From the IMG/VR virus record IMGVR_UViG_2703719365_000009: a stretch of 42,461 nt of DNA; one strand, written 5' to 3'. This DNA comes from a virus (Duplodnaviria > Heunggongvirae > Uroviricota > Caudoviricetes). This document shows, piece after piece, positions 2,738-8,354 of this stretch. The position numbers and the translations under genes were made by a program. Position 1 is the first letter of the stretch, and each line of letters begins with the position of its first letter. The notes under the pieces are model-generated. The model was not told where the DNA came from and did not search any database. It worked only from the letters and a program-made list of their open reading frames with translations.

Positions 2738-4828
2738 ATGTGGGTAACAGCAAAAGAATGTGTTGGTCTTCCTGATTTACCAATGATGGAACATAACATT
2801 CGCCATCGACTCACAAAAGCAGCTGCGGGAAATGCAGCCATGTTACGCAAACGTAAGGGGACAAAAGCAATCGAATTTAATATCGATTGTTTGCCTTCTG
2901 GCGCGCAACAAGTATTGCGTGAACGTTATGCCCTTCAACTGATGACGCAAAAAGCTGATGAATCACCGGCTCCGGTGGTGACAAAGGCCAGACGCTCGCC
3001 TGCCGTGGTTGATGCTGTGGAGGCATATCGCGGATCACCACAACTGATGGTTGAACGCCTTAATGCCCTGACTGAAAACCAGCGCCAGGTGGCTGATGCA
3101 CGAATCGCGATCGTCAGCGAAGTGATGAAAGTCGCGCAACAACCCGGTTTCAGCTGTGCGAAAGCTATCCGGTTTATCGTTGACAACCTGGCACGTTCGC
3201 AGCTGGACGAGCGCATTGTGGCAATGGTTGAGACGGCGAACGCCAAAAAGGGAAACAGCCGTGCGTTGAGTGAAATCACGCTGAAACGCTGGATTGCAGC
3301 CTTTAACAAGGCGCAGAACGCCGCCGAACGCCTGCTTTTACTGGCACCGGGTAAGCGCCAGGAAATAAAAGCCGAAGATATTAACTGGCTGCCCGAATTT
3401 CTGGCGCAGTATCGCCAGTCAAACGGCCGACCAATGACCGAGGCTTACGAGGATTTTGTCGCTGAATGGCAGCACCGGCACGCTGATGAGCCTTATATGC
3501 TCGATATCATGCCGTCTTATGACACCATTCGCCGCGCAATGAAGAAACTGCCGGAAGTGGTGAAACAAAAAGGCCGGGTGACCGGCAGTGAATACCGCCA
3601 GCTTGAGGGATTCACGCGCCGCGACTGGTCCAGAATGCCGGTGAATTATGTCTGGATTGGTGACGGTCACGGCATGAAGCTGAAATGCGCACACCCGGTT
3701 CACGGTCGGCCATTTGCACCGGAAGTGACCTTTGTTATCGACGGTGGCACGCGCTTTGTGGTGGGCTGGAGCCTTGACCTGGCTGAAAATGTTTTCGCCG
3801 TAGCCGGTGCCATACAGCACGGCATTCGCCATCACGGCAAACCGTTTCTGTATTACTCGGATAACGGCTCCGGGGAAACCGCCGACATCCTGGATAAGGA
3901 GGTTGTGGGGATACTGCCGCGACTGGGGATTAATCACCCGACCGGGATTGCCGGTAATCCGCAGGGACGAGGCATTATCGAACGGCTTAACCGCACATTA
4001 CCGATGCGCATAGCCCGTAAATACCGCACCTATTTCGGGAAAGGTGCAGATCGCGAGACGTTACGCAAAACCAACCGCGATTTACGCTCGGCATTTACTG
4101 CCCTGCAACAGGGCAAACGGCTGAACGTCCGGCAGCAGTCAGCGATGCGTGATTTACCGTCCTGGTCTGAACTGATTGATGCCATTCGTGACGGTGTTGA
4201 GTGGTACAACAACCGGCCGCACGATGAATTACCGGTGAAGCCGAACGGCAAGCATTACAGCCCGGCGGAGTTCAGAAAAAAACGCCTGGCGGAAGAGGAC
4301 ACGGAAATTGAATGGCTGTCCGATGTTGAGCTGCGGGATATGTTCCGGCCGATGGTGGAACGCCCTGTAAGACGCTGTGAAATACGCTGGCTGAATAATA
4401 TTTACTACGCGCCCGAGCTGCGTGACGAGCATGGTCGTAAGGTGCTTATCAGCTATGACATTCATGATGCCGAACGAATTACCGTACGTCGCCTGGATGG
4501 CAGCGTGATTTGCGAGGCGGTATGGGACGGTAATAAACGCGAAGCCTTCCCGGTCAGCGCGGAATACTACAAACAGCAGCAACGCCTTAAAGGCATGCGT
4601 AAACGCGCAGAGGAAAAAATCCGTGATGCCGAGGATGAGGTTGTCAACGTGCTGGAGCACAAGCCGCAGGAGCCCTGGCTGGAAAACATATACCGCCCTG
4701 TGGGTAATACGGTGGCCGTTCAGCAACCTGCCGTTGATGATGAGCCTGATGAAGAATACGAGCGTAATTTCCAGCGGGGATTGCAGTTGCTCGAAGCGAA
4801 ATTAAAAGAAAATGACCCGCTGGCCTGA
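2738..4828 (+). CDS. A: Transposase A (MuA-like DDE transposase)
   Basis: 696 aa; N-terminus MWVTAKECVGLPDLP resembles MuA N-terminus; position after ner. Confidence 0.93.
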   Translation: MWVTAKECVGLPDLPMMEHNIRHRLTKAAAGNAAMLRKRKGTKAIEFNIDCLPSGAQQVLRERYALQLMTQKADESPAPVVTKARRSPAVVDAVEAYRGSPQLMVERLNALTENQRQVADARIAIVSEVMKVAQQPGFSCAKAIRFIVDNLARSQLDERIVAMVETANAKKGNSRALSEITLKRWIAAFNKAQNAAERLLLLAPGKRQEIKAEDINWLPEFLAQYRQSNGRPMTEAYEDFVAEWQHRHADEPYMLDIMPSYDTIRRAMKKLPEVVKQKGRVTGSEYRQLEGFTRRDWSRMPVNYVWIGDGHGMKLKCAHPVHGRPFAPEVTFVIDGGTRFVVGWSLDLAENVFAVAGAIQHGIRHHGKPFLYYSDNGSGETADILDKEVVGILPRLGINHPTGIAGNPQGRGIIERLNRTLPMRIARKYRTYFGKGADRETLRKTNRDLRSAFTALQQGKRLNVRQQSAMRDLPSWSELIDAIRDGVEWYNNRPHDELPVKPNGKHYSPAEFRKKRLAEEDTEIEWLSDVELRDMFRPMVERPVRRCEIRWLNNIYYAPELRDEHGRKVLISYDIHDAERITVRRLDGSVICEAVWDGNKREAFPVSAEYYKQQQRLKGMRKRAEEKIRDAEDEVVNVLEHKPQEPWLENIYRPVGNTVAVQQPAVDDEPDEEYERNFQRGLQLLEAKLKENDPLA

Positions 4829-4898: not shown

Positions 4899-5831
4899 AT
4901 GACTGATATTAACGATGTAATCAAGACCATTGATGAACTTATTGATGGCGGCGTACTGACGCAGTATGCCATCGCCAGAGAGGCGGGAATTTCCGACGGC
5001 ACATTATCGGCTTTCCGTAAGGGAAAATATAAAGGCGATAACGCTGCTGTGGCTGCTTCCCTGCGTTCCTGGTATGAGAACTGGAATAAACAAAGCGCAC
5101 TGCCGGAACCGCCGCAGTTTGTGGAAACGCAGACAGTCCAGGAGCTGCGCGCACTGTTTCAGGCGGTTCGTCTGATGGGCTGTATTAACGTTATTGTGGG
5201 CGTACCGGGTGTGGGTAAAACGGCCACTGCCCGTAATTACTGCCAGGAGCAACCAAACACCTGGATGATCACCCTGTCACCCGCGCACTCCAGCGTCACG
5301 GAGTGTCTGCTGGAGCTGGCCGATGCGCTGGGGATTGATTACACCCGCGCGAACAAAGGGGCATTATCCCGCGCCATCCGCCGTCGCCTGATGGGAACGC
5401 GTGGACTGGTGATTGTGGATGAGGCGGATCATCTGGGTATTGACGGTCTGGAGCAACTCCGGGCAATTCAGGACGCCACGGGGATCGGGATGGTGCTTAT
5501 TGGTAACCCGCGCGGATTGTTTAAAGGTGGACGCCGCGCCTTTGATGATTTATCGCGCCTGTTCAGCCGTCTTGCCCGTACAAAACAACTTCGCAAGGCC
5601 AAAAAGGCGGATGTGCTGGCCATTGCCAGGGCATGGGGTATCAGTGGTGAGGCCGAGCTGGCCGTCATGCAGGCTATCGCTGAAAAGCCGGGAGCGTTAC
5701 GCGTTCTGACACATACGCTTAACCAGGCGTGGCTCACCGCCAGCGGTGAAGGCGCGGCGCTGACAGAAAAACATATTAATGCGGCCTTTAAAGAGGTTTA
5801 TACCAACCCTGAATTACTCTCACAGGTGTGA
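4899..5831 (+). CDS. B: Transposition ATPase B (MuB-like AAA+ target DNA activator)
   Basis: 310 aa; Walker A GVPGVGKT; strong overall resemblance to MuB including PEPPQFVETQTV and VIVDEADHLG segments. Confidence 0.93.
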   Translation: MTDINDVIKTIDELIDGGVLTQYAIAREAGISDGTLSAFRKGKYKGDNAAVAASLRSWYENWNKQSALPEPPQFVETQTVQELRALFQAVRLMGCINVIVGVPGVGKTATARNYCQEQPNTWMITLSPAHSSVTECLLELADALGIDYTRANKGALSRAIRRRLMGTRGLVIVDEADHLGIDGLEQLRAIQDATGIGMVLIGNPRGLFKGGRRAFDDLSRLFSRLARTKQLRKAKKADVLAIARAWGISGEAELAVMQAIAEKPGALRVLTHTLNQAWLTASGEGAALTEKHINAAFKEVYTNPELLSQV

Positions 5832-6055
5832 TTATGGCGGTATTTAATATTCCTGATATTTACGGACGCTTTTACCTGGTTAATTTCGATAACGTGAAGG
5901 TGATTTCACTGGCCGAAAATAAAGAATGTGGCGATTTACTTTTTGAATTTAATGACCGCACACGAATGGTGATATCTGCCGGACTTGATCGCGAAGGTGC
6001 GACAGACGTTTACAGCGGAATATGCCGTTCTGTTGGTGCGAAACAAGTCAGCTAA
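5828..6055 (+). CDS. Small early protein at the Mu kil position (Kil-like by position and size)
   Basis: 75 aa; start overlaps B stop (ATGA coupling); Mu kil is about 74 aa immediately after B. Confidence 0.5.
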   Translation: MIMAVFNIPDIYGRFYLVNFDNVKVISLAENKECGDLLFEFNDRTRMVISAGLDREGATDVYSGICRSVGAKQVS

Positions 6056-6067
6056 ATGAGGTGTTAT

Positions 6068-6322
6068 ATGAATATGCAATCCTGCGGTAACAAAATGAAT
6101 TTATTCGACTCCCTGAACAGCGCGCGCCGTCTGACCGAACTTGCCGGTGCGGTACTGGAACGCAGTAAGCGCTACCCACAACGTTTTGCACTGAAAACCA
6201 CGCCGCCGGTAGGCAACGTGCAGGGAACCGGTGAAATTGAAATCACCATACAGACCAACGGCCTGCGCCGCCGTGTGAAGGCCACCCGCATCAGCGGCTG
6301 CACGGTTTACTGGGAGGTGTGA
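6068..6322 (+). CDS. Hypothetical early protein
   Basis: ORF with RBS GAGG before ATG 6068 (alternative ATG at 6056). Confidence 0.5.
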   Translation: MNMQSCGNKMNLFDSLNSARRLTELAGAVLERSKRYPQRFALKTTPPVGNVQGTGEIEITIQTNGLRRRVKATRISGCTVYWEV

Positions 6323-6323
6323 G

Positions 6324-6605
6324 GTGAAAAAAAATCTCATTGCATGGGCGTGGTCGAGTGGTCTTATTGAGTTTGGTTACGTCCTGCCGGAAGGTGCATT
6401 GCCGATAGTTGCCGGAAAGCCTGCCACGGTACGGCATGTGATTGAGGTTATGGCGCGTCATGGACGTGATGAACAGGAGCAGTTACTGGTTCCGGGGATA
6501 CCGGAAGCGGTGACGGAGGAAGAAGCCTTTAATGCCATGATTCGGTTCTGCCGTGAGGTCAGACGCCGGGTCAGTTATCCAAACAGAACGAGGACCAGAG
6601 GATGA
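6324..6605 (+). CDS. Hypothetical early protein
   Basis: 93 aa; GTG start with RBS GGAGGTG; tightly packed in early operon. Confidence 0.5.
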   Translation: MKKNLIAWAWSSGLIEFGYVLPEGALPIVAGKPATVRHVIEVMARHGRDEQEQLLVPGIPEAVTEEEAFNAMIRFCREVRRRVSYPNRTRTRG

Positions 6606-6874
6606 GTAAAGTCGTACGCATTATTTTCGAATACAAGGAGCACGTTATCCATAAAAACGCTGATGGAACAGTGCGCATGGGGGTAAGTCTGGACATACGT
6701 TCAACCGGGATAAAGCAGAAAGGTGATGGACCCGCCATGATTTTTGGGGTGGTTATGCTCGCGGAAAGCAGAGACTTTGCTGAACTTGTGGCAATGAAAG
6801 CCAGTGCGCTCATGAAAGATATGAGCATGCGTTCCGGGGTTATTAAAGGTAATGAATTTAATCAGCAGGGGTAA
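6602..6874 (+). CDS. Hypothetical early protein, paralog A of tandem pair
   Basis: 90 aa; N-terminus MSKVVRIIFEYKEHV similar to the next gene MSKVRVIFEFKHVSH; start overlaps upstream stop. Confidence 0.6.
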   Translation: MSKVVRIIFEYKEHVIHKNADGTVRMGVSLDIRSTGIKQKGDGPAMIFGVVMLAESRDFAELVAMKASALMKDMSMRSGVIKGNEFNQQG

Positions 6875-6878
6875 TTCC

Positions 6879-7172
6879 ATGAGCAAAGTACGCGTTATTT
6901 TTGAATTTAAGCATGTTTCGCATGACGAAAAACCGGCAGGCAATGACTGTGTTGAAGTGCATGAAAAGATTGGTGTGGATGTAAAAACAGAACGTGATAC
7001 GAATAACAGGCCGACGTCACTCTGTGACGTTTATGCAAGTATTCTCCAGTATCACAGCCCTGAAATTATTCAGTTTCTCTCAGCGGAATTTCAGGCATCT
7101 GTACAGGCTTTTGGGGCGGATGCCATCATTAAACGCCACCGCGTGCATAAAGCATCAGGCACACTGCAATAA
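6879..7172 (+). CDS. Hypothetical early protein, paralog B of tandem pair
   Basis: 97 aa from ATG 6879 with RBS AGGGG; paralogous N-terminus to 6602-6874. Confidence 0.6.
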   Translation: MSKVRVIFEFKHVSHDEKPAGNDCVEVHEKIGVDVKTERDTNNRPTSLCDVYASILQYHSPEIIQFLSAEFQASVQAFGADAIIKRHRVHKASGTLQ

Positions 7173-7183
7173 GGAAAAACAAA

Positions 7184-7714
7184 ATGGCAAAACGCGTTAC
7201 AAAATTAAAGGCCGCAGCAGAGGCGGCACCGCAGACCCGTGAAGAGGTCAGCCGCGATATCCGCACCCTGGGCGATATTCAGCGAGAGGCGCTGCGCCTG
7301 GAAACAGCGATGAATGATGAAGTGGCAGAAATCACCGCCCGTTATACGCCGCAGATTGAAAGCCTTAAAAAAGAAATCAAAGTGCTTTTTAAGGGGATTC
7401 AGGACTGGTGCAAAACCAACCGTGATGAGCTGACGAACGGCGGCAAAACCAAAACTGCCAATCTGACCACCGGAACGGTGTCATGGCGACTGGGGAATCC
7501 ATCATGCAGCGTCAGTCGTGATGTGGAAGGTGTGATTGAAATGCTGCGCCGTATGGGCCTTGAGCGTTTTATCCGCACGAAAGAGGAAGTGAACAAGGAA
7601 GCGGTCCTGGCGGAGCCGGATGCAGTGAAAGGCATTGCCGGTATTAAGGTGAATAAAGGCGCTGAAAGTTTTTATGTCGAGCCTTTTGAACAGGACGCCG
7701 GACTGAATAAATAA
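7184..7714 (+). CDS. gam: Gam-like host-nuclease inhibitor (DNA end-binding, Ku-like)
   Basis: 176 aa; segments RDELTNGGKTKTANL, SWRLG, FIRTKEEVNKEA match Mu Gam as recalled. Confidence 0.88.
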   Translation: MAKRVTKLKAAAEAAPQTREEVSRDIRTLGDIQREALRLETAMNDEVAEITARYTPQIESLKKEIKVLFKGIQDWCKTNRDELTNGGKTKTANLTTGTVSWRLGNPSCSVSRDVEGVIEMLRRMGLERFIRTKEEVNKEAVLAEPDAVKGIAGIKVNKGAESFYVEPFEQDAGLNK

Positions 7715-7811: not shown

Positions 7812-8354
7812 ATGGCATATTTTTATTTCAAATTAGACCGTGTGCAGACAAATAAATATTTCACCAAATATCAACAGACTGTTTTACCGCTACGCAACAG
7901 TATTCTTCGGGCATTACTGAAAAATACAGGCGCTGCCGGATTGCGCTTAAAGCCGTTTGCCATGGACGTAATCAGTGAGTTTTATTTTTCTGGTGCTCTG
8001 CCTGCGGGCTGGCGTAAGCGCGATGATGTGGCTTTTATCGGGGACGGACCGTGCTTTATTGCCAGACCTGATGAGTCATGCCCTGAAGGACCGGCGATTG
8101 CCGCAATGATTGAAGCCGCTGAACGCGAGTTAAGAAAGCGTCCTGATTTCCTTGTCTGGCTCTGTGAAAAGCTGGGGGTAATGAGAATCCCCTCCATGTT
8201 TAACATGGACTCCTGGTGGACCCCGTCGCTCTCCCGTGATGCCCTGTGCGTGGTGTTTAAAGTAGGCGCTTATGGCAGGGAAATAAAAGGGGGTATTCCT
8301 GAAGAATGCCAGGAGATTAAACATTCTGAATATGTGGCGCTGACGGAGGAATAA
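7812..8354 (+). CDS. Hypothetical early protein
   Basis: 180 aa ORF with RBS AAGGAACAGG. Confidence 0.55.
   Translation: MAYFYFKLDRVQTNKYFTKYQQTVLPLRNSILRALLKNTGAAGLRLKPFAMDVISEFYFSGALPAGWRKRDDVAFIGDGPCFIARPDESCPEGPAIAAMIEAAERELRKRPDFLVWLCEKLGVMRIPSMFNMDSWWTPSLSRDALCVVFKVGAYGREIKGGIPEECQEIKHSEYVALTEE

What the first reader, a model, noticed from the sequence alone, without database searches (positions are those of the whole stretch)
6602..7172. Tandem paralogous small early genes
Adjacent genes 6602-6874 and 6879-7172 begin MSKVVRIIFEYKEHV and MSKVRVIFEFKHVSH and then diverge. This indicates a local duplication followed by divergence, a pattern often seen in phage inhibitor families that are diversifying against host targets.
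Basis: seen in the sequence. Interest (0 to 1): 0.4.

Follow-up and report, generated by a model that had tools for sequence, protein, structure and literature searches.

The report
Tandem divergent paralogs, Mu-like prophage
Two adjacent small early genes of an E. coli Mu-like prophage are real but very diverged copies of one uncharacterised, fast-changing phage gene family that related phages carry only once, just upstream of gam; its function is still unknown.

Summary
6602-6874 (orfA, 90 aa) and 6879-7172 (orfB, 97 aa) start MSKVVRIIFEYKEHV and MSKVRVIFEFKHVSH. Pairwise BLASTP sees only those 17 residues (E 9e-4).

Profiles show homology over about 75 residues:
- hhalign gives E 3e-6 over 65 columns.
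- The orfA body without its N-terminus scores 10.9 bits against a family HMM that excludes E. coli orfB; 1 of 5000 shuffles reaches that.
- orfA residues 28-72 match a Klebsiella/Salmonella-type family member at BLASTP E 3e-6.

They are therefore true paralogs, filed separately as phrog_4107 and phrog_2230.

About 15 Mu-like prophages of Salmonella, Klebsiella and Serratia carry one copy, always directly upstream of gam or DUF3164. The tandem pair is specific to the E. coli lineage: 40 of 41 IMG/VR loci, and about 227 of 5426 complete genomes.

The family is the most variable syntenic early gene (22% identity where Kil and Gam are 95-99%). Its dN/dS is about 0.3 against about 0.1 for neighbours. 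orfB alleles are swapped as a cassette whose left breakpoint lies just after the conserved N-terminal 11 codons.

Function is unknown. The best inference is a non-enzymatic binding protein in a host or competitor conflict. Interest is modest.

The parts
6602..6874 (+). orfA, 90 aa, basic (pI 9.45); phrog_4107. Upstream copy of the pair, found only in the E. coli Mu-like lineage.
   Evidence: ORF and translation. phrog_4107 at E 1e-61. 41 homologs, all E. coli, at least 73% identical. dN/dS 0.30. Homology to the orfB family over residues 1-75. pI and no transmembrane segment.
6879..7172 (+). orfB, 97 aa, pI 6.6; phrog_2230. Downstream copy, at the position (directly 5' of gam) that the single-copy gene occupies in other Mu-like prophages.
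   Evidence: ORF. phrog_2230 at E 1e-40. Homologs. Single-copy positional equivalents. dN/dS 0.36.
6602..6646 (+). Codons 1-15 of orfA (MSKVVRIIFEYKEHV): shared N-terminal beta-strand motif.
   Evidence: BLASTP. DNA alignment. Nearly invariant across orfA alleles. AF2 predicts a strand from residue 4 at low confidence.
6879..6910 (+). First ~11 codons of orfB (MSKVRVIFEF): family-wide conserved motif. It is about 100% identical in DNA between orfB allele classes and lies immediately left of the cassette breakpoint.
   Evidence: Alignments. Window versus L032 identity profile.
6911..7163 (+). Hypervariable body of orfB (codons ~12-96), replaced as a cassette between otherwise near-identical prophages.
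   Evidence: 50-83% DNA identity here against 97-100% on both sides. Two allele classes, at least 91% and about 60% aa identity.
6602..6605 (+). ATGA overlap: the start of orfA overlaps the stop of the upstream phrog_1518 gene (6324-6605). The single-copy gene has the same junction in Salmonella prophages.
6867..6871 (+). AGGGG ribosome-binding site of orfB, inside the 3' end of orfA. Only 4 nt separate the orfA stop from the orfB start.
   Evidence: Read from the sequence.
6324..6605 (+). Upstream neighbour, 93 aa, phrog_1518. Present or absent among related prophages.
7184..7714 (+). Downstream neighbour gam (PF07352). The family gene always sits directly 5' of gam or of DUF3164.

Best explanation
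orfA and orfB are two tandem members of one small-protein family (about 90-98 aa; phrog_2230 plus phrog_4107). The family belongs to the early operon of Mu-like transposable prophages of Enterobacteriaceae.

Shown:
- They are homologous over about 75 residues, not only at the N-terminus.
- One copy directly upstream of gam or DUF3164 is the widespread state. The second copy (orfA) is an addition specific to the E. coli lineage.
- orfA keeps the ancestral 5' junction and orfB keeps the gam junction.
- The family has a conserved hydrophobic N-terminal strand (V-x-V-I-F-x-F-E) and a few conserved core residues, but an extremely variable body.
- Alleles are swapped by recombination, with breakpoints just after the conserved N-terminal codons and at the stop codon.

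Inferred:
- The proteins are soluble and non-enzymatic. No conserved polar catalytic residues are visible; only core hydrophobics plus one Glu and one Gly are conserved.
- They are co-transcribed with the transposase genes A and B, kil and gam at the start of lytic growth.
- They act by stoichiometric binding to a variable host or rival-element target, in counter-defence, host takeover or exclusion.
- Carrying two divergent copies broadens or splits that specificity.
- The pair arose either by in-situ tandem duplication or by unequal recombination that stacked two divergent alleles. The similar 5' ends would then be kept alike by shared constraint or by gene conversion.
For: Homology:
- hhalign of the orfA family against the broad orfB family: E 3.3e-6, 65 columns, probability 88%.
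- hhalign against the family without E. coli sequences: 75 columns, E 3.3e-5.
- hhalign against the P0162-164 group: E 1.3e-5, 71 columns. E. coli orfB against that same group gives only E 1e-4.
- hmmsearch --max over 1505 six-frame ORFs: orfA is the only non-member hit (E 4.5e-4); the next is E 2.5.
- orfA residues 18-90 score 10.9 bits. 1 of 5000 shuffles reaches this and the reversed sequence scores -0.6. Other orfA alleles score 8.8-20.7 bits.
- BLASTP of orfA 28-72 against P0163 31-75: E 3e-6, ungapped.
- The low-confidence AF2 models share the same order of elements: a long N-terminal beta-hairpin (4-18/24-38 and 4-21/24-39), then helices.

Copy number:
- Single copy in L042-L049, L062, L064 and L065-L072.
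- Tandem pair in 40 of 41 E. coli-type IMG/VR loci.
- 227 of 5426 complete E. coli genomes cover at least 80% of the region.

Junctions.

Variability:
- 84 full-length 90%-identity cluster representatives, median pairwise identity 45%.
- The family gene is 21-46% identical where B, Kil, Gam and gp11 are 60-99%.
- dN/dS is 0.30 and 0.36, against 0.05-0.21 for neighbours.
- Cassette breakpoints at 6910/6911 and about 7164.

Operon and protein properties:
- No + strand promoter or terminator beyond chance; gene spacings are -4, 4 and 11 nt.
- No transmembrane segment.
Against: - Each homology statistic is modest: hhalign probabilities are 72-88% and HMM scores 11-18 bits.
- PHROGs keeps the two families apart, with no cross-hit at E <= 10.
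- The close E. coli orfB profile alone sees nothing beyond residue 12 of orfA.
- Structure models are low-confidence (pLDDT 55 and 53), so a common fold is not demonstrated.
- No functional evidence exists: no Pfam, NCBIfam, PADLOC or PDB match, and nothing on this family turned up in two literature searches.
- dN/dS is below 1 overall, so positive selection is not shown. The high variability could reflect relaxed constraint plus recombination.
Confidence: 0.65

Rival explanations
1. The similarity is N-terminal only. The first ~12-15 codons were copied, or are a shared recombination or translation-initiation boundary, and the two proteins are otherwise unrelated.
For: Pairwise BLASTP aligns only residues 1-17. 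The E. coli orfB profile gives -1 bit for orfA residues 18-90. PHROGs files them as separate families with no cross-hits. The conserved 5' segment coincides with a recombination breakpoint.
Against: The orfA body without its N-terminus scores 10.9 bits (other alleles up to 20.7) against a family HMM that excludes E. coli orfB. 0-1 of 5000 shuffles reach this and the reversed control scores -0.6. BLASTP of orfA 28-72 against P0163 gives E 3e-6. hhalign alignments span 65-75 columns.
Confidence: 0.1
2. A recent in-situ tandem duplication of orfB in the E. coli lineage, followed by very fast divergence of the bodies. The N-terminus is the last relic.
For: The two N-termini share lineage-specific residues (K3, R, E10, K12, H) that the Salmonella, Klebsiella and Serratia members (N3, Q6, T10, E12) lack. 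The 5' and 3' junctions are those expected of a tandem duplication. Single copy is the rule elsewhere.
Against: The orfA body is least similar to the adjacent orfB allele (BLOSUM sum 16-21 over 63 columns) and most similar to P0163 (60). Allelic cassettes are demonstrably exchanged between phages, so stacking two old alleles and then homogenising the 5' end explains the chimeric pattern equally well.
Confidence: 0.35
3. The family has a housekeeping role in the Mu life cycle, for example as an accessory factor for Gam/DUF3164 DNA-end handling or for transposition. Its variability would then reflect weak constraint, not conflict.
For: The position immediately 5' of gam or DUF3164 is invariant, with 8-12 nt spacing, in every prophage examined. 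dN/dS is below 1.
Against: Phage Mu itself has an unrelated gene (E8) upstream of gam and no confirmed family member. orfA is absent from some otherwise intact E. coli prophages (L040, H38). N-terminally truncated or frameshifted alleles are common. Identity of 22% next to a 99% identical Gam argues against co-evolution with Gam.
Confidence: 0.15

Closest known systems
PHROG families phrog_2230 (orfB) and phrog_4107 (orfA), both 'unknown function'
   Same: Both window proteins are full-length members: E 1e-40 and 1e-61. The distant Salmonella and Serratia relatives also fall in phrog_2230.
   Different: PHROGs treats them as two unrelated families. Here they are linked by profile-profile and transitive evidence.
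Semi-essential early region of phage Mu (kil, E5-E8, gam)
   Same: Same operon position between B/kil and gam, with small genes of unknown role. Kil, Gam, gp11 and gp12 homologs flank the pair.
   Different: Mu itself has no confirmed member. The gene upstream of Mu gam (E8) is unrelated. Mu E6 gives only a weak phrog_2230 hit (E 0.009) that my HMMs and hhalign do not reproduce.
Variable accessory or anti-defence gene slots of phages, for example the anti-CRISPR locus of Pseudomonas Mu-like phages (from my own knowledge, not tested here)
   Same: A fixed genomic slot between conserved genes holds small, highly diverse proteins that are exchanged as cassettes, sometimes several in tandem.
   Different: This slot is in the early operon, not the late region. 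All occupants belong to one family. No associated HTH (aca-like) regulator is seen. No anti-defence activity has been tested.
Conserved boundary sequences at module junctions in mosaic temperate phages (general concept, from my own knowledge)
   Same: A short conserved segment coincides with the point where sequence identity collapses between otherwise identical phages.
   Different: Here the boundary lies inside the coding sequence (the first 11 codons) and also encodes the family's most conserved structural element.

Membership tests
phrog_2230 family (single-copy 'upstream-of-gam' gene of Mu-like prophages) | Full-length sequence match to the family profile | tested here: met
   orfB: E 1.3e-40, residues 3-97 against profile 1-88 of 89. 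orfA: no direct PHROG hit, but it matches my family HMM over residues 1-74 (17.1 bits, 0 of 5000 shuffles reach this) and hhalign gives E 3e-6 to 3e-5.
phrog_2230 family (single-copy 'upstream-of-gam' gene of Mu-like prophages) | Conserved N-terminal motif M-S-(N)-K-V-x-V-I-F-x-F-E | tested here: met
   orfB has MSKVRVIFEFK and orfA has MSKVVRIIFEYK.
phrog_2230 family (single-copy 'upstream-of-gam' gene of Mu-like prophages) | Position directly 5' of gam or DUF3164 in the early operon | tested here: met
   orfB ends 11 nt before gam. orfA is one gene further upstream, at the ancestral 5' junction.
phrog_2230 family (single-copy 'upstream-of-gam' gene of Mu-like prophages) | Common three-dimensional fold | tested here: inconclusive
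   The AF2 models have pLDDT 55 and 53. Both show an N-terminal beta-hairpin and then helices, but they are too uncertain to superpose. Foldseek against BFVD finds nothing at E <= 1e-3.
Phage Mu E6 (gp7, phrog_10252) | Significant sequence or profile similarity | tested here: not met
   BLASTP E 7. hhalign probability 0.2%. HMM scores of 0.7-2.1 bits are indistinguishable from shuffles. The only signal is a weak phrog_2230 hit at E 0.009.
Gam host-nuclease inhibitor (PF07352) and Kil (PF26843) | Pfam domain match | tested here: not met
   Neither ORF has a Pfam hit at E <= 0.1. The neighbours do hit.
Known defence-system components (PADLOC) | Match to any PADLOC model | tested here: not met
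   0 families at E <= 1 for orfA, orfB, P0065 and P0070.
Characterised anti-defence proteins (anti-CRISPR, anti-RM, anti-CBASS and others) | Sequence or structure match to a characterised inhibitor, or demonstrated inhibition | not testable with these tools
   No anti-defence library is available. The PDB sequence search found nothing. An activity assay is needed.

The most novel reading that the evidence does not exclude
The slot directly upstream of gam or DUF3164 in enterobacterial Mu-like phages holds a hypervariable specificity cassette: one small-protein family whose body is swapped between phages, using its own conserved first 11 codons as the left recombination arm. The protein neutralises a polymorphic host defence or rival-prophage factor. 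The E. coli O157-type lineage has stacked two divergent alleles (one basic, one acidic, possibly pairing through their N-terminal strands) to widen that range.
Probability: 0.25. Interest if true: 0.6.

Novelty: new member of a known kind. Interest (0 to 1): 0.33.

Why it matters
The result links two 'unknown function' PHROG families into one. It also identifies the most variable gene of the early operon of enterobacterial Mu-like prophages, together with a defined cassette structure (conserved N-terminal strand, variable body). Such slots are where counter-defence and exclusion factors are usually found. The family, and the naturally occurring one-copy and two-copy prophages in E. coli O157-type strains, are therefore a reasonable and cheap target for functional screening. 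Without a function it remains an ordinary example of phage accessory-gene duplication and mosaicism.

Tried and rejected
- tblastn of both proteins against 50,697 phage records found only two Stx-phage records with an inserted Mu-like phage, and nothing in Mu or D108.
- Mu E6 looked similar by eye (MAKVIIEIK..., GDEGTLAGMVALLVL). BLASTP, hhalign and my HMMs with shuffles do not support it, so the lead was dropped.
The models have pLDDT 55 and 53. Foldseek against BFVD gave nothing significant, and afdb50 was unavailable.
- Pfam, NCBIfam, PADLOC and PDB sequence searches gave no meaningful hit.
- Two literature searches found nothing on this family.
- Block shuffles with 9-residue blocks are not a clean null, because motifs survive them, and I give them no weight.
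- Antisense ORFs across the region (6571-6828 and 6701-6943, - strand) were treated as spurious. The + strand frames are the ones conserved, with dN/dS below 1.

Full report
**Context.** The window carries a complete Mu-like transposable prophage. The relevant genes are:
- a MuA-type transposase (2738-4828; PF09299, PF02316);
- MuB (4899-5831; PF09077);
- a phrog_3375 ORF (5828-6055);
- a Kil homolog (6056-6322);
- a phrog_1518 ORF (6324-6605);
- the two ORFs of the finding;
- Gam (7184-7714; PF07352);
- further downstream, a gp11-like gene.

The region is 99.7-99.9% identical to chromosomal prophages of E. coli O157:H7 and other STEC strains. The genes are packed, with spacings of -4, 4 and 11 nt, and there is no + strand promoter or terminator signal above chance. 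They therefore belong to the early operon.

**Observation.** orfA (6602-6874, 90 aa) and orfB (6879-7172, 97 aa) exist as described, and the quoted N-termini are exact.
- BLASTP aligns only residues 1-17 against 1-15: 12 of 17 identical, E 9e-4.
- The DNA of this segment is about 85% identical, with synonymous differences. It is therefore not a very recent copy.
- Both ORFs are real genes. They are conserved in 232 of 5426 complete E. coli genomes (annotated 'hypothetical protein') and in 41 IMG/VR contigs, with dN/dS of 0.30 and 0.36.

**Is it only the N-terminus?** At first it looks that way.
- PHROGs files the two proteins in different families, phrog_4107 and phrog_2230, with no cross-hit even at E <= 10.
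- A profile of the close E. coli orfB sequences gives orfA residues 18-90 a score of -1 bit.
- Word-index searches found only close E. coli relatives of each.

The exhaustive HMMER search with the orfB profile found full-length relatives at 26-35% identity. A third search with a mixed alignment then expanded the family to 159 proteins. These are mostly Salmonella enterica, plus Serratia and Klebsiella oxytoca; all are 'hypothetical' and none has a Pfam domain.

With this depth the picture changes:
- hhalign of the orfA family against the broadened orfB family aligns 65 columns (E 3.3e-6, probability 88%).
- Against the family with all E. coli orfB sequences removed it aligns 75 columns (E 3.3e-5).
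- In an hmmsearch --max of 1505 six-frame ORFs from the window and related loci, orfA is the only non-member hit (E 4.5e-4); the next is E 2.5.
- The signal survives removal of the N-terminus. orfA residues 18-90 score 10.9 bits, which 1 of 5000 shuffles reaches, and the reversed sequence scores -0.6. Other orfA alleles score 8.8-20.7 bits.
- orfA residues 28-72 align without gaps to residues 31-75 of P0163 at BLASTP E 3e-6.
- P0163 belongs to a Klebsiella/Salmonella-type subgroup, whose members P0162 and P0164 sit at the canonical position upstream of DUF3164 or gam. That subgroup is at least as close to orfA (hhalign E 1.3e-5) as it is to E. coli orfB (E 1e-4).

I conclude that the two genes are paralogs over about 75 residues. 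The AF2 models are low-confidence (pLDDT 55 and 53). They agree in their order of elements, a long N-terminal beta-hairpin followed by helices. That is compatible with a common fold but does not prove one.

**Copy number and origin.** In every non-E. coli-type Mu-like prophage examined the family is present once, directly 5' of gam or of DUF3164, which replaces gam in some phages. It follows either Kil or a phrog_1518 homolog. The loci are seven from exact-protein look-ups (P0065, P0067-P0070, P0162, P0164) and eight from IMG/VR.

In the E. coli-type lineage 40 of 41 IMG/VR loci have the tandem pair. One locus (L040), and at least one complete genome (strain CI5), lack orfA.

The start of orfA overlaps the stop of phrog_1518 (ATGA), exactly as the single-copy gene does in Salmonella. 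L040's lone orfB carries an orfA-type upstream region. So the upstream copy keeps the ancestral 5' junction and the downstream copy keeps the gam junction, which is what a tandem duplication predicts.

However, the pattern is chimeric:
- The N-termini of orfA and orfB share lineage-specific residues that are absent from the other genera.
- The orfA body is least similar to the adjacent orfB allele and most similar to P0163.

Either the pair is an in-situ duplication with very fast body divergence, or two old alleles were stacked by unequal recombination and their 5' ends were later homogenised or similarly constrained. I cannot separate these two routes.

**Variability.** The family is the most divergent syntenic early gene in all 21 pairwise comparisons of seven prophages. 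In L045 against L064, for example, identities are MuB 85%, Kil 95%, Gam 99% and gp11 92%, but the family gene is 22%.
- The 84 full-length 90%-identity cluster representatives have a median pairwise identity of 45%.
- Within E. coli, orfB has two allele classes (at least 91% and about 60% identity) in otherwise near-identical backgrounds.
- The DNA identity profile of the window against L032 is about 100% up to 6910. It falls to 50-83% from 6911 to 7163 and recovers at the stop codon.

The variable cassette is therefore orfB codons 12-96, and its left breakpoint lies just after the conserved 11 N-terminal codons. dN/dS is about three times that of B, kil, phrog_1518 and gam, but it stays below 1.

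The columns conserved across the family are hydrophobic core positions plus one Glu and one Gly. I see no catalytic-type constellation. Both proteins are predicted soluble; orfA is basic (pI 9.45) and orfB is near neutral (pI 6.6).

**Mechanism (inference).** The evidence is:
- an early-operon, small, non-enzymatic protein;
- a conserved structural strand and a hypervariable body;
- presence/absence and allelic polymorphism among near-identical prophages.

The most likely role is stoichiometric binding of a polymorphic host or competing-element factor, in counter-defence, host takeover or exclusion. The second copy would then extend or split that specificity. This is unproven. There is no match in Pfam, NCBIfam, PADLOC or PDB, no significant structural neighbour, and nothing on this family in two literature searches.

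A housekeeping role tied to Gam or DUF3164 is less likely. Mu itself lacks a confirmed member. The gene varies independently of a 99% identical Gam. Truncated or frameshifted alleles are common.

**Verdict.** The phenomenon, a duplicated, fast-evolving accessory gene in a mosaic phage slot, is a known kind. The specific family is uncharacterised, and the link between phrog_4107 and phrog_2230 is new but minor. Interest is modest.

Noticed in passing
window 6324-6605 (+): The 93-aa ORF upstream of orfA matches phrog_1518, which PHROGs labels 'host nuclease inhibitor', yet it has no Pfam hit and is not Gam. It is present or absent among otherwise near-identical prophages: loci L008, L011, L013, L015, L026 and others lack it. 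It has homologs upstream of the family gene in Salmonella.
   Followed up: partly
L042, L047, L048, L062, L063 and several of L065-L072 (gene directly after the family gene): In many Salmonella and Klebsiella Mu-like prophages a 212-aa DUF3164 (PF11363) protein occupies exactly the position of gam. The rest of the early operon stays syntenic, which suggests a functional replacement of Gam.
   Followed up: no
Proteins P0142-P0150 and P0153 (82 aa, 'MKEKRFRGG...'); loci L068, L069, L071: Many Salmonella alleles of the family are called with a different, shorter N-terminus, or start late. This looks like recurrent frameshifts or truncations in the 5' part of the gene that remove the conserved N-terminal strand. 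They could be pseudogenes in decaying prophages or sequencing errors.
   Followed up: no
window 6774-6833 (3' part of orfA) and 5828-6055 (phrog_3375): A second, smaller variable patch lies in the 3' third of orfA (77-90% DNA identity against L032, with 100% around it). The 75-aa phrog_3375 gene after MuB is also unusually variable among the E. coli loci (73-99% aa identity, dN/dS 0.21).
   Followed up: partly
L041 (IMGVR_UViG_2617271340_000001), L010, L030: Some IMG/VR copies have frameshifted orfA, orfB, kil or gam (split BLAST hits). This is consistent with degraded prophage copies or assembly errors.
   Followed up: no
L070 2145-2504 (+), Serratia-type Mu-like prophage: Between kil and the family gene there is a Cys-rich ORF (CPFCG...CQTCG) that looks like a zinc ribbon, reminiscent of Mu E5 (CPGCG...CCPWC). 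No such ORF is present in the window.
   Followed up: no
window 7812-8354 (+): The 180-aa ORF after gam has no Pfam hit. In part of the E. coli loci it is replaced by a protein only about 24% identical. This is another allelic replacement slot in the same early operon.
   Followed up: no
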